From the NCBI RefSeq assembly GCF_058153355.1, contig NZ_CM177019.1: a stretch of DNA of 64,000 bases. One strand, given 5' to 3'. The notes beneath the pieces are model-generated. The model did no database searches. It was given only the letters and a program-made list of their open reading frames with translations, and was not told the DNA's origin. The position numbers and the translations under genes were made by a program. Of the stretch, positions 9,209-50,335 are shown one piece after another. Within the stretch, counting starts at the first letter, position 1, and each line of letters starts with the position of its first letter.

Positions 9209-9679
9209 ATGCTAAGTAACGATATTCTGCGCAGCGTGCGCTACATTTTGAAAGCCAATAATAACGACTTGGTGCGCATTCTGGCGCTGGGTAATGTCGA
9301 AGCCACTGCGGAACAGATCGCCGTCTGGCTACGCAAAGAAGACGAAGAAGGGTTTCAGCGTTGTCCGGACATTGTTCTGTCTTCATTCCTGAATGGCCTG
9401 ATTTATGAAAAACGTGGCAAGGATGAGTCAGCTCCGGCACTGGAGCCGGAACGTCGCATTAATAACAACATCGTGCTGAAAAAATTACGTATCGCGTTTT
9501 CGCTGAAAACTGATGATATTCTGGCGATCCTTACCGAACAGCAGTTCCGCGTTTCGATGCCGGAAATTACGGCGATGATGCGTGCACCGGATCATAAAAA
9601 CTTTCGTGAATGCGGCGATCAATTCATGCGTTATTTTCTGCGTGGGCTGGCAGCGCGCCAGCATGTGAAGAAAAGCTAA
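9209..9679 (+). CDS. yehS: DUF1456-family protein YehS
   Basis: The ATG at 9209 gives MLSNDILRSVRYILK…, 156 aa, with an internally duplicated domain. The longer track ORF (from 9152) overlaps the btsR end. Confidence 0.8.
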   Translation: MLSNDILRSVRYILKANNNDLVRILALGNVEATAEQIAVWLRKEDEEGFQRCPDIVLSSFLNGLIYEKRGKDESAPALEPERRINNNIVLKKLRIAFSLKTDDILAILTEQQFRVSMPEITAMMRAPDHKNFRECGDQFMRYFLRGLAARQHVKKS

Positions 9680-12306: not shown

Positions 12307-13439
12307 GACTGAAGATTCTCCGCAAGCCAGGTAGCCAGTTCGCCCGGCGTCATTGCGGCTATTTGTGCGCCGACATTTACCAGCGCCTGGGCTGTATCGC
12401 GGTCGTAGCAAGGTGTTGCGGTGCTATCGAGCGCTGCCAGTCCCAGCACTTTGATGCCGCTCTGGACACACTTTTTCACCTGATGCGTCAGCAATGATGA
12501 TGAACCCCCTTCATAAAAATCGCTCACGAGGATGATGACGCTTTTCGCTGGTTGTTCAATAAGTTGCCGACCATATTCCACGGCGCTGGCGATATTGGTC
12601 CCGCCATCCAGCTGTACTTTCATTAATAACTCTACCGGATCGGCAACGTCTGCCGTGAGATCGACGACGCTTGTGTCAAAAGCGACCAGATGGGTGCGGA
12701 TACCGGGTAACTGCCATAAACAGGCCGCCATCACCGCTGAGTGGATCACCGAATCGACCATTGAGCCGCTTTGATCAACCAGTAACACCAGCTGCCATTG
12801 TTCGCTATGGCGTTTAATTCGGCTGTTAAAGCGGGGGGATTCGATATACAACTTGCCGTGTTGCGGGTGCCAGTGTTGCAGGTTGGCGCGCAGAGTACTT
12901 TTGAAATCGAAATTACGTGCCAGTGGAATAAATGAGCGGCGACGGCGATCGCGGACACCTGAAAAAGCCTGACGAACTTCCTTTGCCAGTCGCGCCATAA
13001 TTTCTTCAACAACCTGGCGCACTATCCGGCGGGCGGCAGCCAGCACTTCGGGATTCATCAGATGTTTGGTGTGCAAAACGGCGCGTAGCAGGCTTTCAGA
13101 AGGCTGCATACGCTCCAGCACGTCGAGATTCGTCACCACATCTTCAATGCCGTAGCGCAGTACGGCATCGCTTTCCAGCCGCTCAATCACCCGTTGCGGA
13201 AATAGTGTGTGAATACTGTTGATCCACTCAGGGGTGGTGAGATTTGAGTCACCTAATCCACCGGAGCGTTCACCACGCTGGAGCCGTTCAGGATCGCGCC
13301 CATACAGCCACTCCAGCGCGTGGTCTATCTGCCGGGCATTGTCATCCAGCCCACAAAGCGTCGTTTCTGCCGCTTCGCCAAGAATTAATCGCCAGCGTTG
13401 TAGCTCACGAGTGGTCAGAAGATCGTTCAGTTCAGACAT
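12303..13439 (-). CDS. yehP: von Willebrand factor A (VWA) domain protein YehP
   Basis: The ATG at 13439 (MSELNDLLTTREL…) overlaps the yehM end by 8 nt. MIDAS-like residues are LLVDQSGSM … GGTNIASA … LVSDFYEG. Length is 378 aa. Confidence 0.85.
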   Translation of the reverse strand: MSELNDLLTTRELQRWRLILGEAAETTLCGLDDNARQIDHALEWLYGRDPERLQRGERSGGLGDSNLTTPEWINSIHTLFPQRVIERLESDAVLRYGIEDVVTNLDVLERMQPSESLLRAVLHTKHLMNPEVLAAARRIVRQVVEEIMARLAKEVRQAFSGVRDRRRRSFIPLARNFDFKSTLRANLQHWHPQHGKLYIESPRFNSRIKRHSEQWQLVLLVDQSGSMVDSVIHSAVMAACLWQLPGIRTHLVAFDTSVVDLTADVADPVELLMKVQLDGGTNIASAVEYGRQLIEQPAKSVIILVSDFYEGGSSSLLTHQVKKCVQSGIKVLGLAALDSTATPCYDRDTAQALVNVGAQIAAMTPGELATWLAENLQS

Positions 13440-15711
13440 GGAAAACTCCCCAGTGTTGCAGTGATGCCAGTGCCTGCTGTTCGAGTTGTTGATGATGTGC
13501 AATGGCTTGCGGTGGACAATGCAACGGCATTTGCAGCGCTGAAACGGGAAGCTGTGCGAGCTGGTAATGCTCAAGCACCTGATGCGCCAGCGTCCCGCGT
13601 TCTCGTGGTGGTAGCCAGGCCATCGCCGCGCGTAAATCGGGCAGGGCGTTAATAAAATCGTCGTCACTCAGTTGATTTAAATGACTACTGAAACCGGCGA
13701 TAAATGCCGGCTGACAGGCCAGTTGATGGCGGGCCAGCGCCAGCAAACCGTGCAGCGCCTCGCCAGATTGTGCCGGGGATAATTGTGCCAGCATCGTCAG
13801 CGCCGCTTCGGCACTGGCGTTGGGATGTTCCAGACGCATCAGCGCGCCAAGGGCCGCACCGCGATCCAGCGCTGGGGCATGAATCGCCTGACTGCGACGT
13901 TCCAGTAAGGCTACCGCCGCAGAAAGCGAAACGCCGGGTAAATTAACGCCGCTATTTAGATCGCGCAGGATATGGCAAAGCGCCTGCCAGCTATGCAGGT
14001 GAGCGTGAAACTCCTTCTCATCCGGCCTGCCGTTGGATTCACATAGCCACAGTGTGCGATCGATAGCCGCGTATAACGTCGTCTGTAATATCTGCGCGCC
14101 TTGCATACCGCTGATTTCATCGAGCTGCCACAAGGCGTAAAGCACTTCCAGCGCCTGGCCCATTTCGGCAAACTGATTTTCCTTGGCGATTAATAATGTG
14201 AGTTGTTCCAGTAATTGCTGACTGAAGGACGCCAGACCCGCTAACGCGGCCTGGCTAAGACATGTGGTGATGCCGCTGATTCCACCCGCGTCCAGCATAT
14301 CGGCTTCTAATTTATTGCGTGCGGCCTCCTGGAGTGTGGCACCAAAGCAGGCGGCTTCAATCAATGCCGCATGTTGGCTAAGTGGCTGGGTTAATGTCCA
14401 GCGTTCTTCACCGTTGCCCGCCAGCGTCAGTGTACTTCCTTGCTCGCGCACAATGCCGGGAATCTCCAGTATTACCAACTGATGTAGCACCTGACTTTGC
14501 GCCAGTCCATCGGGGGTAAAGCGATTTAAGGTAAGCTCCGCCGGAAGAGAGATTCCGGTACGTTCCAGTTCGTAGGTGACATCTTTTGGCAGAGGTGGCT
14601 GTGGCGTCGAGGGGGCAAGTTTACCGAATCCGTCACCTGCTAATGTGTCTATCAACGTTACCAGTATCGGATCGGTATCGGGATGAATAACGTCGCGATA
14701 GCTCCACGGCAACGGCGCATTCAAGGCTTCTTTAATCAGCGAGCCTGCTATGGCATCCAGCCAGTCAGTGCGTAACGGTAGTGTATGACCGCGCAACTGT
14801 GCCAGCGCCATCGCATGTAAATGAGCGGCAGCCATATCCGCGGTTGAAGCAGGCAATTTGTGCTGGCGCAAACGGGTAAGAACCGTTTTTAGTAGTTGTT
14901 CACCTGCCTGCTGCAAGCCCCACCGCCAGCACCAGTTTTGCCAGACCGGGGCAGGCATTCCTGAAAGGTATCCTGCCAGCACATCAAGGCGCTTTTCACT
15001 GTATGGCGTGAGATAGCAACCTGTAACGGCATCATCCTGTGAGAGCAATTCTGGCTTGTTAATTTCTTGCGGGCATTCGCGCCACATTTTTGCCAGTGCC
15101 GGAGCGTGCCAGCCTCCGCAGACGACTAATACGTCGCCATTATTTTGCTGCATCGCCCATGCAATCCAGCGGGCCATAAAGGCTTCGCGCTGACGATTGA
15201 GTGCATCGCCGGAGGCGTCGCCCCGCAGTTGTGCAAAATAGTGCGCCAGTGCAGAGGGTAATATAGTTTGCTGGCTTTCATCTTCGAACAAGTGATCCCA
15301 CAAGGTGTCGCTGTTATCCATGCGGGTGGCACGCAGCAGAAAGGCCTGGCTTTCCTCTTGCATATCAGGCGAATCATCCTCTTCTTCACTTTGTGCCCAG
15401 CAAGGCAAATCGATGAAGTAAGTTTGTGCCTGAATACGACGTGCGGCTTGTAGCGCCTGCCACTCCGGCGAAAATTCAGCAAATGGCGTCCAGGCACCAC
15501 GCCCGGGGGCCGCACCGTCCTGATACTGGCAATAACTGTAAATAGCTACCGGAAGCTGGTGGGCTAACAACAGTTCGTCTACCCGGTCATTAAAATCAGC
15601 CGGGCCTTCAATCAACACGTATCGTGGCCGCTGGCTTTCGATTAACGATTTCACCAGCCGGGCGCAGGCCGGACTATGATGCCGGATGCCGACAATTAAC
15701 GGCTCGCTCAT
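13432..15711 (-). CDS. yehM: 759-aa uncharacterised protein YehM (DUF5682-like, largely helical)
   Basis: The ATG at 15711 (MSEPLIVGIRHHSPACARL…) lies 10 nt after the yehL stop and is preceded by GAGGAAA. I recognise no catalytic motif. Confidence 0.8.
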   Translation of the reverse strand: MSEPLIVGIRHHSPACARLVKSLIESQRPRYVLIEGPADFNDRVDELLLAHQLPVAIYSYCQYQDGAAPGRGAWTPFAEFSPEWQALQAARRIQAQTYFIDLPCWAQSEEEDDSPDMQEESQAFLLRATRMDNSDTLWDHLFEDESQQTILPSALAHYFAQLRGDASGDALNRQREAFMARWIAWAMQQNNGDVLVVCGGWHAPALAKMWRECPQEINKPELLSQDDAVTGCYLTPYSEKRLDVLAGYLSGMPAPVWQNWCWRWGLQQAGEQLLKTVLTRLRQHKLPASTADMAAAHLHAMALAQLRGHTLPLRTDWLDAIAGSLIKEALNAPLPWSYRDVIHPDTDPILVTLIDTLAGDGFGKLAPSTPQPPLPKDVTYELERTGISLPAELTLNRFTPDGLAQSQVLHQLVILEIPGIVREQGSTLTLAGNGEERWTLTQPLSQHAALIEAACFGATLQEAARNKLEADMLDAGGISGITTCLSQAALAGLASFSQQLLEQLTLLIAKENQFAEMGQALEVLYALWQLDEISGMQGAQILQTTLYAAIDRTLWLCESNGRPDEKEFHAHLHSWQALCHILRDLNSGVNLPGVSLSAAVALLERRSQAIHAPALDRGAALGALMRLEHPNASAEAALTMLAQLSPAQSGEALHGLLALARHQLACQPAFIAGFSSHLNQLSDDDFINALPDLRAAMAWLPPRERGTLAHQVLEHYQLAQLPVSALQMPLHCPPQAIAHHQQLEQQALASLQHWGVFHV

Positions 15712-15721
15712 GCATCTTTCC

Positions 15722-16810
15722 TCACGGCAGGCGGTGGCGAGCTTGATAATAAGCCTGCCAGTGAGCTTCTTTATGTGTAGCGACACGTTGTTCGAAGTAA
15801 CGGCGCAGACGTGCGCGATCTTCTTCGTTATCTTTGACGATGGTTCCGGCAATACAGTCCACCAGGTCGGCTGGCTCCCCCGCGCGATTCGCTAAAAACC
15901 AGGCGCGGACGCCCACGGCGTGGGCCACGTTAACGGCTTCAGCGGTGGACATAATCGCTGTAAGGGTATCCATTGACGTTTTCTTTTCGCCGTTGGCACG
16001 CAGATCGCGGAAGGTGCGTACCAGTAACTCAAGTACCGCGTCAGGCACTTTATGCGGAATACCGCTATGGGCCAACAAACGCGCCGAAGCACTGGCGACC
16101 AGTTCCAGCTCCTGGGCGAAATCCATAATCGGAAAAACCGTTTCAAAATCGAATCGGCGTTTTAGTGCCGCGCTCATTTCATTAACGCCGCGATCGCGGG
16201 TATTGGCGGTGACAATAATATTAAAGCCTTCCCGCGCATAGAGCTGACTGGCTTCACCAGTGAGTTCCGGCACCGTCATAACCCTGTCAGAAAGCATACC
16301 TAACAGACAGTCTTGTACTTCCAGTGGTGTACGCGTTATCTCTTCAAAACGGACAATTTTGCCGTCGCGCATTCCCTGGTAGAGCGGGGCAGGGACCAGC
16401 GCTTCCGTTGACGGACCATGATTAATAAGCAGGGCGTAGTTCCAGCCGTACTTGATTTGATCTTCGGTGGTAGATGCGCCGCCCTGGATAGTTAACCCAG
16501 CATCGCCGCTAATAGCGGTTGCCAGTAATTCAGACAGGAGAGATTTTGCGGTGCCAGGTTCCCCCACCAACATCAAACCGCGCCCGGTAGCAAGAGTGAC
16601 TAACATGCGTTCGACAGCGGAGGGACTAATCACGACTTTACGGCTGATATTTTGCGCGCTATCGCCAAGAATAAAAGAACGGGCCGCAGGCAAACTTAAC
16701 TGCCAACCGGGCGGGCAAGGTGCGTTATCATTTTGCTTTAATTTTGCCAGTTCATCGGCGTATAACACAGCGGCAGGCGGACGCTGCAGATGATTATTCT
16801 GCGGTGACAT
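15722..16810 (-). CDS. yehL: MoxR-class AAA+ ATPase YehL
   Basis: Contains Walker A LMLVGEPGTAKS and a MoxR-like C-terminal segment of the AAA core (VTANTRDRGVNEMSAALKRRFDF). Length is 362 aa. Confidence 0.88.
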   Translation of the reverse strand: MSPQNNHLQRPPAAVLYADELAKLKQNDNAPCPPGWQLSLPAARSFILGDSAQNISRKVVISPSAVERMLVTLATGRGLMLVGEPGTAKSLLSELLATAISGDAGLTIQGGASTTEDQIKYGWNYALLINHGPSTEALVPAPLYQGMRDGKIVRFEEITRTPLEVQDCLLGMLSDRVMTVPELTGEASQLYAREGFNIIVTANTRDRGVNEMSAALKRRFDFETVFPIMDFAQELELVASASARLLAHSGIPHKVPDAVLELLVRTFRDLRANGEKKTSMDTLTAIMSTAEAVNVAHAVGVRAWFLANRAGEPADLVDCIAGTIVKDNEEDRARLRRYFEQRVATHKEAHWQAYYQARHRLP

Positions 16811-16921
16811 ATATTCATCCCTGAAATGTATTAATCAAATAAACGATATTTTACGCGCAATAAATGTTTGGCGCATTAGTTGTTTGAGCGGAAAATATCT
16901 GGAAAGCAGATCACAGTAAAT

Positions 16922-17002
16922 AAAAAAACCTGCTGGTGAGGCAGGTTCTTTTATTTACTACTTTGACGATAACTTGCTGATTGTGCAACATTTCGTACCA
17001 AC
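16922..17002 (-). ncRNA. orzO: Orz-like antitoxin sRNA (predicted ~81 nt)
   Basis: Minus-strand promoter: TTGCAA (17037-17032), 17-nt spacer, TATAAT (17014-17009). The predicted start is the G at 17002. The first 18 nt (complement of 16985-17002) pair with 17151-17168 of the zorO leader. The RNA ends at a stem aacctgc/gcaggtt followed by a U7 tract (16922-16947). Confidence 0.65.
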
Positions 17003-17008
17003 GAATGA

Positions 17009-17059
17009 ATTATAACCATATCCACATCCCGTTGCAATTCACTAAGCGAGATTTATAAT
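17009..17059. promoter_or_regulatory. back-to-back promoters of orz (-) and zor (+) sharing one palindromic -35 hexamer
   Basis: TTGCAA at 17032-17037 is its own reverse complement. A TATAAT lies 16 nt downstream on the plus strand (17054-17059) and another 17 nt downstream on the minus strand (17014-17009). Confidence 0.6.
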
Positions 17060-17150
17060 CGTGCCCGTTGGGAGGTTGTGCCGGATTGAACCAATTTCAA
17101 GTCCTGGCTGCCGGACGGGGGGTGCCGCAGGTGGTGCCCTGATCCGGAGA

Positions 17151-17168
17151 GCAACGTTTCGTACCAAC
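17151..17168 (+). promoter_or_regulatory. predicted Orz pairing site in the zorO 5' UTR
   Basis: gcaacGtttcgtaccaac is a direct repeat of gcaacAtttcgtaccaac (16985-17002). An RNA made from the opposite strand of the upstream copy pairs over 18 nt with one G-U wobble. Confidence 0.6.
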
Positions 17169-17240
17169 ATACGTAAACCAGTATCGACAGGCAGTGTAAG
17201 GGTAAGGTGCTGGTGTTGCGCTCCTTAATAAGGAGAGCGG

Positions 17241-17330
17241 ATGGACACGCTGACACAAAAGTCAACCGTGCTCATTGCCGTACTGGAGTTATTAGTGGCT
17301 CTGTTGCGGTTGATTGATTTGTTGAAGTAA
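17241..17330 (+). CDS. zorO: 29-aa hydrophobic type I toxin, ZorO-like
   Basis: Manual translation gives MDTLTQKSTVLIAVLELLVALLRLIDLLK*. A strong SD (AAGGAG) lies 5 nt upstream. The predicted leader is ~174 nt. The peptide is nearly identical to the EHEC ZorO peptide as I remember it. It is below the ORF-track cutoff. Confidence 0.7.
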   Translation: MDTLTQKSTVLIAVLELLVALLRLIDLLK

Positions 17331-17351
17331 CGGGCAAATTGAAACGCATCT

Positions 17352-17376
17352 AAGGGGGAATACCGTTTCCCCCTTT
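17352..17376. terminator. bidirectional hairpin between convergent zorO and yehK
   Basis: aagggggaa-taccgt-ttccccctt forms a 9-bp stem and is followed by ttaat on the plus strand. Confidence 0.5.
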
Positions 17377-17383
17377 AATAAAG

Positions 17384-17704
17384 CTATTTTTCTATTTGTT
17401 GGATGAATATATTTTGTAGTTCACGATTAAAAATTGCTATTACAGTTTTAGGTGATTCACCTCGTAATTTACGCTCATCAATAAATTCATCTCTTATATA
17501 AATCAACGCATCATTTATTAGCGGGTCGACATCTTCTCGATCACGTTGATGAAATGTTGGATGTAGCCGGAATCGCTCCAACCGGTAGACGGAACCAGTA
17601 AATAATTCAGAGCATTTATGGATCTCAAGTCTGAAGGAAAACGGATCTTCAGGTACAGGGACTTCATAATCATAAGTAGCGACCAGCTCTTTTTGCACGA
17701 TCAT
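17384..17704 (-). CDS. yehK: 106-aa uncharacterised protein YehK
   Basis: The ORF lies 60 nt downstream of yehI on the same strand. The sequence is recognised as YehK. I recognise no domain. Confidence 0.75.
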   Translation of the reverse strand: MIVQKELVATYDYEVPVPEDPFSFRLEIHKCSELFTGSVYRLERFRLHPTFHQRDREDVDPLINDALIYIRDEFIDERKLRGESPKTVIAIFNRELQNIFIQQIEK

Positions 17705-21424: not shown

Positions 21425-24400
21425 TTATTCAAACAGGGCTTCGATGTCGTTAATTAACTCGCTAGCGGTGATGTCATCGAGTGCGGAGAACTGCGCTTCC
21501 TGTGTTGAATTAATCCCCCAGCCATAGCTTTCTGCTTTGCCTTCCCATAGCCACAGCTTGCTTAAGAGTTGCTCGGCACTGAGTTCGGCTGGCGACATAC
21601 CAACTGCAAATCCTTCATCGATTTCCATGATTAATGACCAGCGGCCCAGAGGTTTGATCATCCAGCCGATCCAGCCACCGTCCTGCGGTTCACCACGCAT
21701 CCAGCCTTTATTCGCCAGCCCCATTACCCGACCGCTCGGGCATTTTCTGCCTGCCCAGCGGGTCAATTCGCTGGCATTGCGCTCGGTTTCTGTCAGGGCG
21801 TAACTGTTACGGTCGAGCTGGCGGAACGGCGGTAGCAGTTCGTAGTCGGCAAAAAGCTGACCAAAGGCGGCAGCATCCGTGGGTGATATTTCCAGAACGT
21901 GAGGAATGCCAACAGAGATATCGCCTTCCGGCAGGGTGAAAAGATCATCGTCAGCGGTGCTGTAGCTGTTATCTTCCGCCACACGGAAGCACGCCAGTAA
22001 CTGGTTGTCTGCGCTATAAATGCCCCAAATCAGACGGCGGGTTAAGTGGCAGACCAGCGGATGCTCAACCAGAAAGAGCTGAAAGTTTTCTGGCGACCAG
22101 CGGCGGCGCAGGCACATGGCGGATTCCAGCCTTGCCACCTGCTGGGCGGCAACGGTACGCGCATCTTTTTTCAGCAGTTTGTAGCGGTTAACTGCATCGT
22201 TCGCTTGAGTTTCATCATCGCTTTTGTTCGGTTTAGGCAAGTCTTTCAGGCGGCTGCCGGAAGCATCACGCACAAACGGTTTTAAGGTTTCATCAAAGCT
22301 GACGGTGAACTGCCGTGGCCCGAAATCCAGCAGCAGCGAACCGTTATCATCCAGACCGAGATCCGGTGCTAACCGGTCTTCAAGCTCCGCCACCGTGAGT
22401 TCGCGGCTCTCGGCAATGTCGGCAATTTTTTCTTTTGCCCGCTCCTGTAATGCTTTGAATTTCAGTTTCTGGGCGATGCCGTTAAGCTGCATCAGGGCGA
22501 TATCACTACCGATAGCAGCGAGAATATCCAGCCCGACGGTGGCGCGTTTATGCTGGGATTCACCAGGCCAGGCGCGAATCAAAGGCGTCAGTTTGCGGGC
22601 GGTATCATCGTTGCCGAGAACACCTAACGCAGTGAACGCCCAGCTTTCTTTCGACGGTGCGCCAGCGGTCTGCCAGGCGGTAAACAGATCCCAGGCAAAT
22701 TCAGCCAGTGAGTCGGCGGTACAGGCATCTTTCACCTGCAATAACCCCGCATACAGAGCCTCTTCCTGAGGGAAGCGGAGCATTTCACCGAGGTGGAGGA
22801 GGGCGTTATCTGGCAGTGATTGGGCGTTTGCTTTTAATACCGGGCGTGTCCAGAGCGATGGCTGATAAAAGGCCGGAAGTGTCGGGATTTTAGTCGGGTG
22901 ATTATCTAAGGGATCGAGCGCAAGTAGAGCGTTCACCGCATCGGTTACTTCCGGCTGGTTATAACGCTGGGCGATTTCTTGCAGTAATGACGGATAACCA
23001 CTTTCAATCAACATACGTAAGGCGGCGCGGGCGTTATCCTGGGCTTCACCAGCTTTGCCGAGTGCCGCAGGCAACAGGCCGATAATGGCATGTTCCGGAT
23101 ATTTCAGCAGCCAGGTGCGGGCGTCTTGTCGTAGAGTTTTGAGTTTGTTAAAGGCGCGGGCGACGGCAGGAGCCAGTTCCGTTGCGGCAAAATAATTAGC
23201 AACCGCAAAACCTTCTTGAGGGTAGCGTGAAAACGAGTGTAGAAAACCACTCATACCTGCCAGTCGCAAATAAAGCATGACAGGTTTTACCGCGGTATGC
23301 GGCTCTTTGCTGAGAAACTCCCATAGTTTAATCGCTGTTTGCATAGGTAAAAAGGGAAGTGAGTTGAGATGCCACTCCCCCTGATACGGTGCATGGTGGG
23401 CTTTAAACATTTGGATGAGTGTAGCGAAGTCCTCACGTTCCCATGCGTCAATTGCCGAGTCAGAAGCGCCGATATATTTATATGTGTCAAAATCCCAGCG
23501 GCGATACCCCAGCGAGTAAAGGAAATCTTTAGCACCTTCACCTGGCTTATGCGATTCCCAGTCCCAATGAGTTTGAAACTCTTTTGCTTCTGTGTCGGTT
23601 ATTGTGCATATGGATTTGAGTTTGAGCGGTGCTAAATCCAACACCGGAATCGTCGATTTTTTCTTTTTCGAAAGCCAGGGAGGTAAGACTAATACGGCTG
23701 GCAGTAGAGCGGCGCAGGCATGGTTTGACGGTTGTATCAGTTGTTGCTGGCATGATTTCAGCACTTCAACTGCGGCTGTCGAGAGCCAGGGAGTGACCTG
23801 TTCTGCCAGTGCCGGTTGCGAGATAAGCATCGTCATTAGCATAATGCGCCAAGTATTCTCTTCTTTTTGCGCAAGAAGTTCCGCCAGTGCCGCCAGTGCT
23901 GCGTGTGGGAACGCAGCGCAAGCTTTCGTCATCCGATCGTGACAGCGTTTAGTTTGCCCGGCTACACGTATGAGCAGTGTTAATGCGAACGGATGATTGA
24001 TATGACGCAATACATCTGCGCAGTAGTCACTTGCGGCATAGGGAGCAAATCTGGGCAGGGCTGCAACACCTTGCTCCTGTAATACGGTGGCTGACAATAT
24101 CGCACCACAATAGTAATCATCAAAAATGGCATATGGCTCGTGATATTTTTCTAATGAGGCAAGAATGTGCTCATCAGTCGCCACTATTTTTAGCCACTCA
24201 AGCGAGGGTAATTTTTTTTTCCCCAGTAGACGCTGGGCAATTTCATGTGCAATTTCTGGTTTTTCGGGTAATAACAAAGCAATTAATGGTTGCCGCCATT
24301 CTGGAATATGTGGAATTGCGGCAATAAGTTTTTGTGCACATTTTTGCCAGAGAGACTCTTCCGCCAGTGATAAATGTTTCCGTAGGCGTAATTCAAAACT

Positions 24401-25213
24401 GGAATATTGCTGCAGGTTATCAGGTGCAATACCAGACGGCAGAATAATAATGGTATTATTCGCATAATCCCATTCAATATCAATCTGTTGAAGATGTATT
24501 ACTACATCAGTAGCATATTCCAGGCCACCTTCCTGAACGAGCTGATCCATAACATCCTCACGCTCTTTATATCTCGTGCACTTCAGTTCAAGTGCCGTGA
24601 GTACAGCCATTACTGGTGATGGTAACTGTGTTGTTTTCAGGCAGTCGATCTGACTGAGCGCCTGGGAGATGGCGTTTTGCCATTCTAAAGAACAGGCGCT
24701 GAAGTCAAATGTGGCTGTTTTATTATCCCGTTGCAACACGCTACAGGCTAAGCGGCGTAACTGGGTCAATTCGTCTGCTTGCTGAACAGGAACTCCGGGA
24801 AAGCGGCGATGGCTTAACGTGGTGTGTACAACTTCGGGCGGAAAAACGACAGCAATATCTTTCGCCAGCCACGGTAAAACATCATCTGTATTTTTGTCAG
24901 CCACACGGGCTTCTGCTACGCAAAAGGGTTGTTCCTGAATAATGGTGGATAAGGCCGCTACCTTGAGAGAATCCGTTACCGTTTGGGAAGGTTGCAAAGA
25001 ATTATCCTTCGCTTGCCCCACATACCCCTTCTTCACCTTCTCCGCAATCAGCCTCAGTTCCGCTTTTTCCGCCGCCGCAGCATCAGCAAAGCTTTTTACC
25101 TGGCTTTGCCCGTTGGTACTGACTTTGCCCCAACTAATATGCAGCTCGTTTCCCTGTTGCTCCACTGCCCAGAATTTATGTGATTTTTCGTCCTGATAAA
25201 TATAGGTTTTCAT
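21425..25213 (-). CDS. 1262-aa MolR/YehH-family protein: N-terminal WGR domain, helical-repeat middle, DUF4132-type C-terminus
   Basis: The N-terminus MKTYIYQDEKSHKFWAVEQQGNELHISWGKV…AEKVKKGY has the WGR signature. The C-terminal block LDFGPRQFTVSFDETLKP…RRWSPENF…FADYELLPPFRQL is conserved. The start lies 12 nt after the upstream paralog. Confidence 0.85.
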   Translation of the reverse strand: MKTYIYQDEKSHKFWAVEQQGNELHISWGKVSTNGQSQVKSFADAAAAEKAELRLIAEKVKKGYVGQAKDNSLQPSQTVTDSLKVAALSTIIQEQPFCVAEARVADKNTDDVLPWLAKDIAVVFPPEVVHTTLSHRRFPGVPVQQADELTQLRRLACSVLQRDNKTATFDFSACSLEWQNAISQALSQIDCLKTTQLPSPVMAVLTALELKCTRYKEREDVMDQLVQEGGLEYATDVVIHLQQIDIEWDYANNTIIILPSGIAPDNLQQYSSFELRLRKHLSLAEESLWQKCAQKLIAAIPHIPEWRQPLIALLLPEKPEIAHEIAQRLLGKKKLPSLEWLKIVATDEHILASLEKYHEPYAIFDDYYCGAILSATVLQEQGVAALPRFAPYAASDYCADVLRHINHPFALTLLIRVAGQTKRCHDRMTKACAAFPHAALAALAELLAQKEENTWRIMLMTMLISQPALAEQVTPWLSTAAVEVLKSCQQQLIQPSNHACAALLPAVLVLPPWLSKKKKSTIPVLDLAPLKLKSICTITDTEAKEFQTHWDWESHKPGEGAKDFLYSLGYRRWDFDTYKYIGASDSAIDAWEREDFATLIQMFKAHHAPYQGEWHLNSLPFLPMQTAIKLWEFLSKEPHTAVKPVMLYLRLAGMSGFLHSFSRYPQEGFAVANYFAATELAPAVARAFNKLKTLRQDARTWLLKYPEHAIIGLLPAALGKAGEAQDNARAALRMLIESGYPSLLQEIAQRYNQPEVTDAVNALLALDPLDNHPTKIPTLPAFYQPSLWTRPVLKANAQSLPDNALLHLGEMLRFPQEEALYAGLLQVKDACTADSLAEFAWDLFTAWQTAGAPSKESWAFTALGVLGNDDTARKLTPLIRAWPGESQHKRATVGLDILAAIGSDIALMQLNGIAQKLKFKALQERAKEKIADIAESRELTVAELEDRLAPDLGLDDNGSLLLDFGPRQFTVSFDETLKPFVRDASGSRLKDLPKPNKSDDETQANDAVNRYKLLKKDARTVAAQQVARLESAMCLRRRWSPENFQLFLVEHPLVCHLTRRLIWGIYSADNQLLACFRVAEDNSYSTADDDLFTLPEGDISVGIPHVLEISPTDAAAFGQLFADYELLPPFRQLDRNSYALTETERNASELTRWAGRKCPSGRVMGLANKGWMRGEPQDGGWIGWMIKPLGRWSLIMEIDEGFAVGMSPAELSAEQLLSKLWLWEGKAESYGWGINSTQEAQFSALDDITASELINDIEALFE

Positions 25214-25225
25214 TGCTAATTCCTT

Positions 25226-28200
25226 TTAATTAAACAGTGATTCAATGTCGTTAATCAGCTCGCTGGCGGTGATGTCGTCGAGTACGGAGAAAGTGGGTGA
25301 GGATTGCTTACCATAGCGATCATAAGGGGCGATGATTTTTACGCTTTCGACAGGCAGCAGGTCGCTATACCCCGTTTCGCCATAAATTAATGAAAAAGGT
25401 TCTGTTTCAAGTTCGAGAGCGCCATAAGGGGTAGATTTGCGCATCGCATAGACGCTGCCGCTTTCTTCCAGACGTTGCCAGCCTCTGCGTTCCAGCCCGA
25501 CAATGCGTCCGGCCTGGCAGAGACGTCCGTTCCAGCGTGACAATTCATGGACATTACGTTCGTTATCAGCAAGGTGGTAACTACCACGTTCGAGCTGTTG
25601 GAAGGGGGGAAGCAGTTCGTAATCAGCGTAAATTTGCCTGAATGCAGCGACAGATTCAGGGGGGATTTCCAGCATATGCGGAATACCGATGTTTCCTGCT
25701 GGTAGCGTGAATAGCTCATCCTGCATATCGCTGTAAGTGCTGTCTTCTGCGACCCGGAAGCAGGCAATCAGCGTGTTTTCCTCAGTATATACTCCCCATA
25801 ACAGCCGTCGGGTTAAGTGACGTACCAGCGGATGCTCCACCAGAAACAGGCGGAACTGTTCTGCCGTCCAGCGTCTGCGCTGGCACATAGCCTGCTCCAG
25901 ACGATCAATCTGCTGACTGGCAATGGCGCGCACATCTTTCTTCAATTGTTTGAAGAGGTTAACGGCGTCAGTTGCCAGTGTTTTATCATCGCTCTGATTT
26001 GGTTTGGGTAAATCTTTCAGGACTTTGCCGTTTGCATCGCGCACTACAGGTTTTAAGGTTTCGTCAAAACCAACGGTGAATTGACGTGGGCCGAAATCCA
26101 GTATCAGCGAGCCACTGCTATCAAGCCCTAAATCTGGAGCCAGGCGGTCTTCCAGTTCAGCCATTGTCAGTCCGCGATTTTCGGCGACCATATTGATTTT
26201 GTCGCGGGCGTGTTCCTGCAATGCTTTGAATTTAATTTTTTGTGCAATGCCATTAAGCAGCATCAGCGCAATATCGCTACCGATACTGGCTAACACATCC
26301 AGCCCAGAAACCGCACGTTTATGCTGGGATTCACCCGGCCAGACCCGGATAAGCGGGGTTAGTTTACGCGCGGTGTCGTCATTGCCTAAAATCCCCAGCG
26401 AGGTAAATGCCCAGTTTTCTTTTGCGGGCGCGCCAGATTCCATCCATGCCGTGTAGAGATCCCAGCCAAAGTCAGCCAGTGATTCCCGGGTGAAGGTCTC
26501 TTTGATGATCGCCAGCCCAGCGTAGGAGGTAATGTCGCGTGGAAAGCTCAATATTGTGCCCAGGTGGCGCATAGCGTCATCGGGCAGAGGCAGGTTGTTA
26601 CTTTTAAGCCGTGGTCTGCGCCATAAGGTGAACTGATAAAAGCCGGGCAGTGGGGCGATTTTTGCAGGATATTCTTCCAGTGGATCGCTATCGAACAATG
26701 TTGCCAGCGCAGCTAAAACATCAGGTTGATTATATCCCCGGGCGATTTCCTCAATCGTTTCTCGCTGGTTTAAATTCACCAGCAGGCGAAGCGCCTGGCG
26801 GGCACAATCACGATCTTTTCCTTTTTTGCCCAGGGCCACAGGAAGTAGCCCGGCGGCGGCATGGTGTGGGAAGTTAGCCAGCCATTTTCGGGCATCTTCA
26901 TAAGACATTTTTTTCTGTAATCGCTGCGCCATCGGTAATGCTAATTCGCTGACGCCCAGGAAAAGGGTGAATATCCACAACTGTTGTGGCTTACGTTGCA
27001 GACATTTCATAAACGCAGGAATGGCCGCATCACCAAAAATCGCCAGAATTTCTCTCTCGCCGGAGAATTGCTCTTCATTAATTATTTGATTGAGAAAAGA
27101 AATAGCATGCTGAGTGGGTAGGAAGCAGAGCGCGTACAACTGCCAGTGTCTGCTTCCTTTATTATGGTATTGCGCAAACTCTGCTTTCAGCGCGGGGAAA
27201 TCGAAACGTAACAGGGCCTCAACTGCGCTTTGTGGCATTATTTTTTTTTCGTATTGTTCTTCTCCGGTTCTGCTCCATTCCTTAAACCCCAGTCGCCAAA
27301 GGATTTGCTGTTCTGGCGTTAAAGGGATGAAAGACGTTTCCCAGCTTTCCTTTTCAATTAGTGGCAGATCGGTAAATAAGGTTTGCTGTGATGCCTGATA
27401 TTTCGCGATTTCACTGAATCTGGATATGTCAGTGTGACTGATTAACTCTGTAATTCCAGGTGTGATGTCAGTGACGGAAGGGATGGGAAGTACCGGTAAA
27501 TCAAATACGGGTATTACATTCTTTTTCTTATTTATTGCCCACGGTGGAGCGACAAGCAGTTCTGGCAACATATTCGCAGTGGCATACTCACATTCTTTAG
27601 CTACTGACTGAGGACGACATTCAGATAAGATGCCTGCCGCTTTAGCATTAACCCAGGGAATGACGTCGCGTACTAACTCTGGCGTGACGGTAACCAGTTT
27701 GACAAGCGCGTTGCGCCACTGTGCATCTTCATGTATTGCCAGCAAAGTAGCATAAGCGGCAATAGCCGCAGCGGGATGTTTTTGGCAGGCTTTGCTTAAG
27801 TATTCCAGGTGCTTTTTCTTGCCATTTACACCGAGGATCAGAATTTGAATCGCATCCGGGTGATTCGTTTTCCATAGCCATTTGACAAGATCTTCAGTCT
27901 CGCTGATGCGCTCGAAGAGATAAGTGGGATTGTCAGAATGCTCTTCCGTAAACTCAGTAAGTATCCGGCTTACACCGCGCCCCCCATTATTTGCCAGCAA
28001 CATTGCCAGATAAGCGCGAAAATCACGATACAACGGTGGGAAGTCGTATTTTTCTGCTGTAGTCAGAGCTATATCATCGGTTACTACCACTCTTAACCAG
28101 GTTATCGCCGGAACGTTTTGGTCTGCATAGCGTAGAGCCATAGCATTGGCAATATCCGGGCGTTCAGGGAGCAGTAACGCGGCAAAAGGTTGCCGTGCTG

Positions 28201-29023
28201 GGGATAGCGTCGGAATAGCAGTAAGCACTTTATCCACACAGCGTTGCCACTCATCTTCTGAAGCGAGTGAAAGATGATGACATAGACGTTGATGCCAACT
28301 CGGTAGCGATTCTGCTTCGTGATTAGGTGGAATGATGGTGGTTACTGCGCCTTTTACTGGTTTATATTTGAGTTGAAGAGCGAGAAGGGCGATTTCAACG
28401 GCACTTTCCAGACCACAGCGAATGACTAAGTCATCGACCAGTTCATCTTGAGAGTAAGAGTTCCAAAAGCCCCAGAGCAATGCCGCATCAGATTGCGCAC
28501 TCCCTGTCTGTTTATTACCCAGAATTCGCATTTGTACCTCAGCAAAAGCCTGCTGCCAGTTTTCTGGATAAGAACGGTAATTGTTGTCGGGGTCATATGC
28601 CCTGGTGTTATTCGCGATGCGCTTCCATATTTGACCATCTTTGTGCAGATAATTGATATCTCTGGGGCGAGAGCGATGTGGAAAAGCAAATCGGTTAATA
28701 TCGTCGGTTAGCGGAATGACTGCATCATCAGCCAGCCATGGGCGTTTGTTTTTACTCTCGGGTGAAGTTTTAACGTCAGGAGTGACTTTGGTGACGGGGG
28801 ATATATGCACGTTTGCCGAAGCGTCTTCCACATAGCCTTTTTTCGTTTTCTCTGCGATAAGCTTCAGTTCCGCTTTTTCCGCTGCTGCAGCATCAGCAAA
28901 ATTTTTTACCTGGCTTTGCCCTTGGGTACCAACTTTTCCCCAACTGATATGCAAATCGTTACCTTGCTGCTCCACCGCCCAGAATTTATGCGATTTTTCG
29001 TCCTGAAAGATAAAGTGTCTCAT
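25226..29023 (-). CDS. 1265-aa MolR/YehH-family protein: N-terminal WGR domain, helical-repeat middle, DUF4132-type C-terminus
   Basis: The N-terminus is MRHFIFQDEKSHKFWAVEQQGNDLHISWGKV…AEKTKKGY. The C-terminal block is LDFGPRQFTVGFDETLKP…RRWTAEQF…YADYELLPPFQQL. It is the first gene downstream of metG on the same strand. Confidence 0.85.
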   Translation of the reverse strand: MRHFIFQDEKSHKFWAVEQQGNDLHISWGKVGTQGQSQVKNFADAAAAEKAELKLIAEKTKKGYVEDASANVHISPVTKVTPDVKTSPESKNKRPWLADDAVIPLTDDINRFAFPHRSRPRDINYLHKDGQIWKRIANNTRAYDPDNNYRSYPENWQQAFAEVQMRILGNKQTGSAQSDAALLWGFWNSYSQDELVDDLVIRCGLESAVEIALLALQLKYKPVKGAVTTIIPPNHEAESLPSWHQRLCHHLSLASEDEWQRCVDKVLTAIPTLSPARQPFAALLLPERPDIANAMALRYADQNVPAITWLRVVVTDDIALTTAEKYDFPPLYRDFRAYLAMLLANNGGRGVSRILTEFTEEHSDNPTYLFERISETEDLVKWLWKTNHPDAIQILILGVNGKKKHLEYLSKACQKHPAAAIAAYATLLAIHEDAQWRNALVKLVTVTPELVRDVIPWVNAKAAGILSECRPQSVAKECEYATANMLPELLVAPPWAINKKKNVIPVFDLPVLPIPSVTDITPGITELISHTDISRFSEIAKYQASQQTLFTDLPLIEKESWETSFIPLTPEQQILWRLGFKEWSRTGEEQYEKKIMPQSAVEALLRFDFPALKAEFAQYHNKGSRHWQLYALCFLPTQHAISFLNQIINEEQFSGEREILAIFGDAAIPAFMKCLQRKPQQLWIFTLFLGVSELALPMAQRLQKKMSYEDARKWLANFPHHAAAGLLPVALGKKGKDRDCARQALRLLVNLNQRETIEEIARGYNQPDVLAALATLFDSDPLEEYPAKIAPLPGFYQFTLWRRPRLKSNNLPLPDDAMRHLGTILSFPRDITSYAGLAIIKETFTRESLADFGWDLYTAWMESGAPAKENWAFTSLGILGNDDTARKLTPLIRVWPGESQHKRAVSGLDVLASIGSDIALMLLNGIAQKIKFKALQEHARDKINMVAENRGLTMAELEDRLAPDLGLDSSGSLILDFGPRQFTVGFDETLKPVVRDANGKVLKDLPKPNQSDDKTLATDAVNLFKQLKKDVRAIASQQIDRLEQAMCQRRRWTAEQFRLFLVEHPLVRHLTRRLLWGVYTEENTLIACFRVAEDSTYSDMQDELFTLPAGNIGIPHMLEIPPESVAAFRQIYADYELLPPFQQLERGSYHLADNERNVHELSRWNGRLCQAGRIVGLERRGWQRLEESGSVYAMRKSTPYGALELETEPFSLIYGETGYSDLLPVESVKIIAPYDRYGKQSSPTFSVLDDITASELINDIESLFN

Positions 29024-42261: not shown

Positions 42262-42392
42262 CCAAACGACTCGGGGTGCCCTTCTGCGTGAAGGCTGAGA
42301 AATACCCGTATCACCTGATCTGGATAATGCCAGCGTAGGGAAGTCACGGACCACCAGGTCATTGCTTCTTCACGTTATGGCAGGAGCAAACT
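42262..42392 (+). promoter_or_regulatory. TPP (THI-box) riboswitch controlling thiM translation
   Basis: ccaaacgactcggggtgcccttctgcgtgaaggctgagaaatacccgtatcacctgatctggataatgccagcgtagggaagtc… contains the conserved CUGAGA and ACCUGAUCUGGAUAAUGCCAGCG elements. The SD (ggcaggag) is adjacent to the anti-SD segment. Confidence 0.95.
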
Positions 42393-50209: not shown

Positions 50210-50335
50210 GTAGGGCGGATAAGGCGTTCACACCGCATCCGGCAACCTATGCCTGATGCGACGCTGAAGCGTCTTATCATGCCTACACAGCGCTGCCACG
50301 TATGCCGGATAAGGCGTTTACGTTGCATCTGGCAT
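50210..50335. repeat. BIME: three REP units
   Basis: The three units are gtagggcggataaggcgttcacaccgcatccggcaac, atgcctgatgcgacgctgaagcgtcttatcatgcctac and tatgccggataaggcgtttacgttgcatctggcat. Confidence 0.88.

What the first reader, a model, noticed from the sequence alone, without database searches (positions are those of the whole stretch)
16922..17376. Unannotated type I toxin-antitoxin (zorO-orzO-like) wedged between yehL and yehK
No ORF in the supplied track covers this locus. The plus strand has a perfect SD (AAGGAG, 5-nt spacer) and a 29-codon ORF, MDTLTQKSTVLIAVLELLVALLRLIDLLK*, which is a single hydrophobic helix with a charged tail, as expected for a type I toxin.

An 18-nt direct repeat (16985-17002 versus 17151-17168, one A/G difference) means that an RNA transcribed from the minus strand of the upstream copy is complementary to the toxin leader, with one G-U pair. 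A consensus promoter and a stem plus U7 terminator delimit an ~81-nt minus-strand RNA that begins exactly at the repeat. The predicted toxin leader is ~174 nt.

This matches what I remember of the EHEC zor-orz family (Fozo and colleagues), which is absent from K-12. It sits inside the otherwise continuous yeh cluster, so transcription through it could affect yehL expression.
Basis: partly seen in the sequence, partly recalled or inferred. Interest (0 to 1): 0.6.

Follow-up and report, generated by a model that had tools for sequence, protein, structure and literature searches.

The report
Known zorO-orzO toxin-antitoxin locus
This stretch is a single intact copy of the well-studied zorO-orzO small-toxin/antisense-RNA pair at its usual place between yehL and yehK, ordinary except for one strain-private base change that turns toxin residue 8 from leucine to serine.

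Summary

- **Antitoxin RNA:** Rfam's OrzO-P model hits 16922-16995(-) at 90.6 bits, against a gathering score of 60.
- **Toxin:** the 29-residue ORF is 28/29 identical to published ZorO.
- **Published landmarks:** promoter hexamers, AAGGAG ribosome site at +164..+169, 174-nt leader, EAP region, OrzO "GAA" V1 triplet and 18-nt pairing box all fall at the published positions. They match the O-type unit of an O157:H7-lineage strain.

The family has been dissected experimentally since 2010 and surveyed in more than 2,000 E. coli genomes, so nothing here is new in kind.

Corrections:
- yehK-yehL is the universal home of this locus, not an insertion site.
- K-12 lacks only the toxin and keeps an orz antitoxin gene.
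- The G-U pair is also present in the reference.

One small curiosity remains. Leu8Ser comes from a single base (17263). That base is one of only four differences in 20.3 kb from a near-identical public assembly, and I did not see it in any other sequence I could check. Its effect on toxicity is untested.

The parts
16922..17002 (-). orz antitoxin sRNA gene, O-type, predicted 81 nt
   Evidence: Rfam OrzO-P RF02083 hits 16922-16995(-) at 90.6 bits (GA 60), E=1.2e-14. The model starts 7 nt inside the RNA. A start at 17002 puts GAA at +9..+11, which is the published OrzO V1 triplet.
16922..16947 (-). Orz intrinsic terminator: stem AACCUGC/GCAGGUU followed by U7
   Evidence: Inverted repeat I1. 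The terminator scan reports the same stem on the + strand. The Orz MFE fold shows a 12-bp 3' hairpin.
16985..17002 (-). Orz 5' seed, first 18 nt: GUUGGUACGAAAUGUUGC
   Evidence: Direct repeat D1. Single-stranded at the 5' end in the MFE fold. Pairs 18/18 with 17151-17168, as 17 Watson-Crick pairs plus one G-U at Orz +13.
17009..17014 (-). orz -10 hexamer TATAAT
   Evidence: Promoter scan. Same hexamer as published for EDL933 (Table 3 of PMC11264685).
17032..17037 (.). Palindromic TTGCAA that serves as the -35 of both divergent promoters
   Evidence: The promoter scan reports the same six bases for both strands. TTGCAA is the published -35 for both zor and orz.
17054..17059 (+). zor -10 hexamer TATAAT
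   Evidence: Promoter scan and published hexamer.
17067..17240 (+). zor 5' UTR, 174 nt. The predicted processing site after +28 lies at 17094/17095.
   Evidence: A start at 17067 reproduces the published 174-nt UTR and puts the RBS at +164..+169. There are no indels relative to the O157-type unit. The start site itself is inferred by homology and was not mapped here.
17139..17168 (+). EAP (exposed after processing) region, +73..+102. It includes the standby-like GGAGAG at 17145-17150.
   Evidence: Coordinates transferred from PMC5397157. The conserved GGAG(T/A)G motif is from PMC11264685. Predicted unpaired probability of the target rises from 0.36 in the full-length RNA to 0.53 in the delta-28 RNA.
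17151..17168 (+). Orz target site in the zor leader: GCAACGUUUCGUACCAAC
   Evidence: [quoted passage not shown]
17218..17238 (+). Hairpin that sequesters the Shine-Dalgarno AAGGAG (17230-17235)
   Evidence: Inverted repeat I7. Predicted unpaired probability of the SD is 0.07-0.17 in both mRNA forms. A sequestered RBS is published.
17241..17330 (+). zor toxin ORF, 29 codons plus stop: ZorO with Leu8Ser
   Evidence: ORF list. 28/29 identical to the synthetic ZorO peptide sequence in PMC6669753.
17263..17263 (+). Private substitution: C here, T in relatives (TTA Leu8 -> TCA Ser8)
   Evidence: It is one of only 3 substitutions plus one 2-nt indel in 20.3 kb against GCA_043012465.1. The Ser8 peptide is absent from the protein collection. 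No complete E. coli genome matches the ORF region at 100%.
17352..17376 (+). zor terminator hairpin (GGGGGAA / UUCCCCC) followed by UUUAAUAAA. It ends 8 nt before the convergent yehK stop codon.
   Evidence: MFE fold. It gives a 310-nt transcript, or 282 nt after processing, matching the published ~310 and ~280 nt bands. The U-tract is weak, and the terminator scan did not call it.

Best explanation

Proposed mechanism:
1. Two back-to-back sigma-70 promoters share one palindromic -35 hexamer. One drives an 81-nt antitoxin RNA (Orz) on the minus strand. The other drives a ~310-nt toxin mRNA (zor) on the plus strand.
2. The zor mRNA has a 174-nt leader that folds so that the ribosome-binding site sits in a hairpin.
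3. Removal of the first 28 nt opens an upstream region (EAP, 17139-17168). That region acts as a ribosome standby site and boosts translation.
4. [quoted passage not shown] This blocks ribosome loading and triggers RNase III cleavage, so little toxin is made.
5. If Orz falls, the 29-residue hydrophobic peptide is made. It inserts into the inner membrane, depolarises it, drains ATP and stops growth.

What is shown here: the sequence features, their exact register with the published ones, the specific complementarity, and family membership. What is inferred from experiments on the EDL933 orthologue: the transcription start sites, the processing step, RNase III dependence and toxicity.

The toxin in this window carries a strain-private Leu8Ser change whose effect is unknown. 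Published N-terminal deletions of 8 or 13 residues stay toxic, so the peptide probably still works.
For: - **Rfam:** OrzO-P scores 90.6 bits against GA 60, and again on the whole window.
- **Peptide:** 28/29 identical to published ZorO. ZorO's ALLRL motif and all six charged residues are retained.
- **Unit alignment:** 95.4% to the O-type unit of O157:H7-lineage strain 112, against 88% to the P-type unit, with identical seed and target boxes.
- **Register check:** P-type Orz pairs with 15 nt of the O target in my matrix, exactly as published.
- **Specificity:** cognate duplexes are -26 to -28 kcal/mol, non-cognate ones -12 to -22.
- **Repression rule:** the pair has 18 continuous pairs counting the G-U, or 12+5 around one non-Watson-Crick position. 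That meets the published rule of 15 continuous, or 17 with one internal mismatch.
- **Published landmarks reproduced to the base:** promoters TTGCAA/TATAAT, RBS AAGGAG at +164..+169, EAP +73..+102, V1 GAA at +9..+11, 174-nt UTR, transcripts of 310 and 282 nt.
- **Location:** the same site as in 5231 of 5426 complete E. coli genomes.
Against: - Nothing contradicts the identification.
- No expression or toxicity data exist for this strain.
- The Leu8Ser change puts a polar residue at the start of the hydrophobic helix. GRAVY falls from 1.40 to 1.24. Another N-terminal change, K7E, abolished toxicity at low induction, so attenuation cannot be excluded.
- The thermodynamic prediction that the EAP region opens after processing is only modest: 0.36 to 0.53.
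- The zor terminator has a weak U-tract.
Confidence: 0.92

Rival explanations
1. The locus is zorO-orzO in sequence, but the toxin has just been attenuated or inactivated by the private Leu8Ser change. That would be an early step towards the toxin-less, orz-only state seen in about a third of E. coli.
For: - Base 17263 is one of only four differences in 20.3 kb from a near-identical assembly. About 1.8% of such differences would be expected to land in the 90-nt ORF, and the change is non-synonymous.
- The Ser8 peptide is not in the 15-billion-protein collection, whereas ZorO is on at least 1000 contigs.
- No complete E. coli genome matches the ORF region at 100%.
- Toxin loss is common: about 1838 of 5426 genomes match only the orz half, and about 30% are published as orz-only.
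- The same base change turns a G-U into a G-C in a hairpin just after the AUG, worth -2.2 kcal/mol.
Against: - Deletions of the first 8 or 13 residues of ZorO remain toxic (PMC6669753), so residue 8 is not essential.
- The ALLRL motif and all charged residues are intact.
- Predicted SD and AUG accessibility do not change.
- The 1.8% figure is post hoc and rests on four differences.
- Small ORFs are often not called, so absence from the protein collection is weak evidence.
- The JGI metagenome contigs do not hold this lineage's haplotype with either allele. The zero hits for the Ser8 allele there are therefore uninformative.
Confidence: 0.15
2. The C at 17263 is a sequencing or assembly error, and the strain encodes plain wild-type ZorO.
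For: It is a singleton. The sister assembly and every other unit examined have T.
Against: Three other differences from the sister assembly lie within the same 20 kb. The two genomes therefore differ at a low real rate, and a true SNP is equally plausible. No read data are available.
Confidence: 0.12
3. The Orz RNA is the functionally important product, regulating something other than zor, and the toxin is incidental.
For: Orz genes with fully conserved promoters persist and are expressed in strains with no toxin, K-12 included (PMC11264685).
Against: The only match to the seed's target sequence in the 64-kb window, at up to 3 mismatches, is the zor leader. No other target is known. In this window the cognate toxin gene and all its control elements are intact.
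Confidence: 0.05
4. A chance small ORF and a chance repeat in an ordinary intergenic spacer.
For: None beyond the small size of the ORF.
Against: Rfam E=1.2e-14. The repeat is expected 0.08 times in the window. The whole unit is conserved across thousands of genomes.
Confidence: 0.005

Closest known systems
zorO-orzO of E. coli O157:H7 EDL933 (Fozo et al. 2010; Wen, Won & Fozo 2014, PMC3919570; Wen, Harp & Fozo 2017, PMC5397157)
   Same: - Same chromosomal site.
- Same divergent layout, promoter hexamers and RBS.
- Same 174-nt leader, EAP region and 18-nt pairing boxes, including the G-U at Orz +13.
- Same V1 triplet GAA.
- Same 29-residue toxin apart from one residue.
- 95.4% DNA identity over 455 nt to the O-type unit of an O157:H7-lineage strain.
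   Different: - Single copy here. O157:H7-lineage strain 112 has a zorP-orzP unit on the yehL side and zorO-orzO on the yehK side.
- Leu8Ser in the toxin.
- The host backbone is a divergent Escherichia lineage, 92-95% identical to K-12.
zorP-orzP and zorQ-orzQ paralogue types (PMC11264685)
   Same: Same architecture and nearly the same toxin (ZorP = T3S, ZorQ = A20S).
   Different: Their seed and target boxes differ. The window's Orz pairs with only 14 of 18 positions of the P-type target, at -16.9 kcal/mol against -28.1 for its own target. The window's unit is 88% identical to P-type units.
orz-only locus of E. coli K-12 (OrzPmg, PMC11264685)
   Same: Same yehK-yehL spacer, same orz promoter and terminator.
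   Different: K-12 has lost the toxin ORF and all but the first part of the leader. The window keeps the complete pair.
tisB-istR1, shoB-ohsC and dinQ-agrB type I systems of E. coli
   Same: - Divergently encoded sRNA whose 5' end pairs far upstream of a structurally sequestered RBS.
- mRNA activated by 5' processing, with a standby-site logic.
- Small membrane-depolarising peptide.
   Different: Unrelated sequences and different loci. The Rfam ohsC model reaches only 28.5 bits against GA 50 on this RNA.

Membership tests
zor-orz type I toxin-antitoxin family (O type) | Orz antitoxin sRNA matches the curated OrzO-P covariance model above its gathering score | tested here: met
   RF02083 scores 90.6 bits against 60, with full model coverage 1-76.
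zor-orz type I toxin-antitoxin family (O type) | 29-residue hydrophobic Zor ORF homologous to ZorO, preceded by RBS AAGGAG | tested here: met
   28/29 identity to published ZorO. AAGGAG lies at 17230-17235, 5 nt before the ATG. GRAVY is 1.24.
zor-orz type I toxin-antitoxin family (O type) | Divergent promoters with -35 TTGCAA and -10 TATAAT for both genes | tested here: met
   These are the hexamers listed as conserved in at least 99% of loci.
zor-orz type I toxin-antitoxin family (O type) | Orz 5' end complementary to the zor 5' UTR: at least 15 continuous pairs, or 17 with one internal mismatch | tested here: met
   18 pairs, 17 Watson-Crick plus one G-U, at -28.1 kcal/mol. Identical to the O157-type pair.
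zor-orz type I toxin-antitoxin family (O type) | O-type specificity: V1 triplet GAA at Orz +9..+11 | tested here: met
   GUUGGUAC-GAA-AUGUUGC, counted from 17002.
zor-orz type I toxin-antitoxin family (O type) | 174-nt leader with RBS at +164..+169 in a stem, and the EAP region at +73..+102 containing GGAG(T/A)G and the Orz site | tested here: met
   The coordinates map exactly with a start at 17067. The SD is predicted paired. GGAGAG lies at 17145-17150.
zor-orz type I toxin-antitoxin family (O type) | Chromosomal position between yehK and yehL | tested here: met
   The flanking ORFs are yehL (15722..16810) and yehK (17384..17704). The neighbours are the same in every E. coli locus fetched.
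zor-orz type I toxin-antitoxin family (O type) | Both RNAs are transcribed from the predicted starts, and the zor mRNA is processed at +28 | not testable with these tools
   Needs northern blots, 5' RACE or dRNA-seq on this strain. Inferred from EDL933 data.
zor-orz type I toxin-antitoxin family (O type) | Overproduced Zor is toxic, and Orz rescues in a partly RNase III-dependent way | not testable with these tools
   Published for EDL933 ZorO. The Ser8 allele has not been tested.
shoB-ohsC type I system | sRNA matches the ohsC covariance model | tested here: not met
   28.5 bits against a gathering score of 50. The match is driven by the terminator hairpin.

The most novel reading that the evidence does not exclude
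The single base that turns toxin residue Leu8 into Ser8 was recently selected rather than neutral. It is one of only four differences in 20 kb from a sister genome and was not found in any other sequence checked. On this reading it retunes or disarms ZorO, giving a snapshot of how type I toxins are lost while their antitoxin RNAs persist.
Probability: 0.12. Interest if true: 0.3.

Novelty: already known. Interest (0 to 1): 0.1.

Why it matters
It matters little for discovery. zor-orz is an experimentally dissected type I toxin-antitoxin family, and its distribution, copy number and sequence variants have been surveyed in more than 2,000 E. coli genomes.

The practical points are about annotation:
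- RefSeq's pipeline leaves both genes unannotated in nearly every genome.
- Neither Pfam nor NCBIfam has a model for the toxin.
- A reader of raw sequence will therefore keep 'rediscovering' this locus.

The Leu8Ser allele is a ready-made natural variant for anyone studying which ZorO residues matter for toxicity.

Tried and rejected
- **Protein family scans.** Pfam and NCBIfam scans of the Zor peptide, the 70-aa antisense ORF (17053..17265 -) and the 55-aa leader ORF (17061..17228 +) gave no hits. Nothing supports a protein gene other than zor.
- **Supplementary tables of PMC11264685.** I searched for the Ser8 variant and found nothing, but the stored file is truncated.
- **GTDB species representatives.** A scan with a 24-nt invariant leader core gave only three loci: two Shigella flexneri and E. 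whittamii. None belongs to the window's lineage. E. whittamii is about 90% identical.
- **JGI metagenome contigs.** Two scans found nothing: one for the Ser8 allele, one for the lineage haplotype with either allele. The first null therefore says nothing about allele frequency.
- **Other contigs with identical YehK or YehL.** Four further contigs exist, but the tool collapses them into one place, so I could not see their allele at 17263.
- **Weaker Rfam hits on the same RNA.** ohsC, STnc370, Thr and Trp leaders are all below gathering score and are driven by the terminator hairpin. Rejected.

Full report
**1.

Window 16811-17383 is the 573-bp spacer between yehL (15722..16810, minus) and yehK (17384..17704, minus).

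- **ORF.** A 29-codon ORF at 17241..17330(+) encodes MDTLTQKSTVLIAVLELLVALLRLIDLLK. AAGGAG sits 5 nt upstream of the ATG.
- **Repeat.** An 18-nt direct repeat lies at 16985-17002 and 17151-17168 with one A/G difference. These are the only two matches in the whole window at up to 3 mismatches, against 0.08 expected from shuffles.
- **Promoters.** Two divergent promoter-like sites each match 10/12 of consensus. Their -35 hexamers are the same six palindromic bases, TTGCAA at 17032-17037.
- **Minus-strand RNA.** A hairpin plus U7 delimits an 81-nt RNA, 17002->16922.

**2. What it is**

Rfam's OrzO-P antitoxin model (RF02083) matches 16922-16995(-) over its full length. It scores 90.6 bits against a gathering score of 60, E=1.2e-14. 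It is one of only three gathering-level RNA hits in the window.

The peptide differs at one position (Leu8Ser) from the ZorO sequence printed in PMC6669753, MDTLTQKLTVLIAVLELLVALLRLIDLLK.

I aligned the unit with units taken from the same spacer in other genomes:

| Compared unit | Identity to the window's unit |
|---|---|
| First unit of E. coli R32_14_1F | 98.7% |
| O-type unit of strain 112 | 95.4% |
| P-type units | ~88% |

Strain 112 belongs to the O157:H7 lineage. It shares its YehL and YehK proteins and a yehM internal stop with O157:H7 strain PV15-279. Its other unit encodes ZorP (T3S).

The seed box (GCAACATTTCGTACCAAC) and target box (GCAACGTTTCGTACCAAC) are identical to the O157-type zorO-orzO boxes.

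**3. Register with the published anatomy**

- **Orz.** With the start at 17002, positions +9..+11 read GAA. This is the V1 triplet that distinguishes OrzO from OrzP, which has ACG (PMC3919570).
- **zor.** With the start at 17067:
  - the leader is 174 nt;
  - AAGGAG falls at +164..+169;
  - the EAP region (+73..+102) is 17139-17168, with the Orz site at its 3' end, 61 nt before the RBS.
- **Transcript sizes.** The transcript is 310 nt to the terminator and 282 nt after removal of 28 nt. All of these values match PMC5397157 and PMC3919570.
- **Standby motif.** The conserved standby-like motif GGAG(T/A)G (PMC11264685) is GGAGAG at 17145-17150.
- **Internal check.** P-type Orz pairs with 15 positions of the O target in my matrix, the number the paper gives.

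**4. Mechanism**

*Shown here*
- The Orz 5' end is predicted single-stranded, followed by two hairpins.
- It forms an 18-pair duplex with the leader at -28 to -30 kcal/mol, against -13.5 +/- 2.1 for shuffled seeds.
- Cognate seed/target pairs from four specificity types score -26 to -28 kcal/mol. Non-cognate pairs score -12 to -22, so the boxes co-vary unit by unit.
- The SD is predicted to be paired in both the full-length and processed mRNA, with unpaired probability 0.07-0.17.
- The target site is predicted somewhat more open after processing, 0.36 to 0.53.

*Inferred from experiments on the EDL933 orthologue*
- 5' processing activates translation through the EAP standby region.
- Orz blocks that region and triggers RNase III cleavage, without needing Hfq.
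- ZorO inserts in the inner membrane, depolarises it, depletes ATP and arrests growth.

**5. Context and distribution**

| Measure, out of 5426 complete E. coli genomes | Genomes |
|---|---|
| Any match to this spacer | 5231 |
| At least 80% of the spacer covered (toxin plus antitoxin) | 3393 |
| Only the orz half matched (about a third) | ~1838 |
| zor ORF region present (median 2 copies per genome, maximum 4) | 3394 |

These figures agree with the published survey of 2,212 genomes: 25% one copy, 42% two copies, about 30% orz-only, 3% none.

K-12 MG1655 has a 306-bp yehK-yehL spacer containing orz only. So 'absent from K-12' applies to the toxin alone.

Almost no RefSeq record annotates either gene, and Pfam and NCBIfam have no Zor model. 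The name ZORO_ECO57 does exist in UniProt-derived data.

The window's backbone is not EHEC:
- metG is 94.6% and the yeh genes 92-93% identical to K-12.
- yehM-yehL is at most 98.0% identical to any complete E. coli genome.
- The region is about 90% identical to E. whittamii.

The source appears to be a divergent Escherichia lineage. I could not name it.

**6. The one unusual thing**

A public assembly contig (GCA_043012465.1, DAXYJU010000009.1) is identical to the window over 6,321 bp around the locus except for one base. Window 17263 is C where the contig has T. This is exactly the change that turns Leu8 (TTA) into Ser8 (TCA).

Over 20.3 kb the two sequences differ by three substitutions (9269, 17263, 24820) and one 2-nt indel. 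About 1.8% of such differences would be expected to fall in the 90-nt ORF. That figure is post hoc.

How widespread is Ser8?
- The Ser8 peptide is absent from the 15-billion-protein collection. ZorO is there on at least 1000 contigs, ZorP on 457 and the A20S variant on 326.
- No complete E. coli genome matches the ORF region at 100%. The best is 98.6%.
- The metagenome collection holds neither allele of this lineage's haplotype, so it is uninformative.

What might it do?
- Deletions of the first 8 or 13 residues leave ZorO toxic, which argues the change is tolerated.
- K7E, next door, abolishes toxicity at low induction, so attenuation is not excluded.
- The same base also converts a G-U to a G-C in a hairpin just after the AUG, worth -2.2 kcal/mol, without changing predicted SD or AUG accessibility.
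- I cannot distinguish a real neutral SNP, an attenuating SNP and a sequencing error.

**7. Verdict**

The finding is an already known system at its known locus, missed only because annotation pipelines skip it.

The idea that it influences yehL expression is untested. Orz is co-directional with yehL and ends in a strong terminator 111 nt upstream of the yehL start. zor converges on yehK.

Interest is low. The only residual curiosity is the private toxin allele.

Noticed in passing
window 17331-17383; compare L001 5185-5384, the L004 spacer tail, the L011 spacer tail and L002 (K-12) 9291-9596: Other E. coli carry an ERIC/IRU-like repeat of about 60-200 bp between the zor terminator and yehK. 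It contains near-exact copies of the ERIC primer sequences; I recognised it from memory. The window has none. In K-12 the remnant of the zor leader runs straight into the end of that repeat (...TTGAATTATTTAGAGTATA), so the toxin deletion junction abuts the repeat.
   Followed up: partly
window 21425-25213 (-) and 25226-29023 (-): Two long intact ORFs (1262 and 1265 aa) lie upstream of yehI. In the sister contig the 1265-aa product carries WGR and DUF4132 domains. K-12 has only a yehH pseudogene and a short yehF here. The near-identical sister contig has a 2-nt deletion near window 24825, and no gene is called there.
   Followed up: partly
window 17032-17037: The six bases TTGCAA are a palindrome and serve as the -35 hexamer of both divergent promoters, zor and orz. 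The two promoters may therefore compete for one RNA polymerase contact.
   Followed up: no
window 42262-42358 (+) and 50213-50283 (+): Rfam gathering-level hits: a TPP riboswitch (71.2 bits) and naRNA4/CssrE (60.0 bits, against a gathering score of 59.5).
   Followed up: no
window 7384-30497: The backbone is 92-95% identical to K-12, including metG at 94.6%. The yehM-yehL segment (13432-16810), the only part compared with all complete E. coli genomes, is at most 98.0% identical to any of them. The source looks like a divergent Escherichia lineage rather than typical E. coli or O157:H7. I did not identify the species.
   Followed up: partly
L001 4001-5386, L003 1501-2740, L009 1501-2646: The order and type of tandem zor-orz units differ between lineages. 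The O-type unit is next to yehL in R32_14_1F and PK-F-10122, but next to yehK in the O157-lineage strain. Further seed/target types exist (GGGGCGCC and GAGATGCC seeds). This suggests unit shuffling by unequal recombination.
   Followed up: partly
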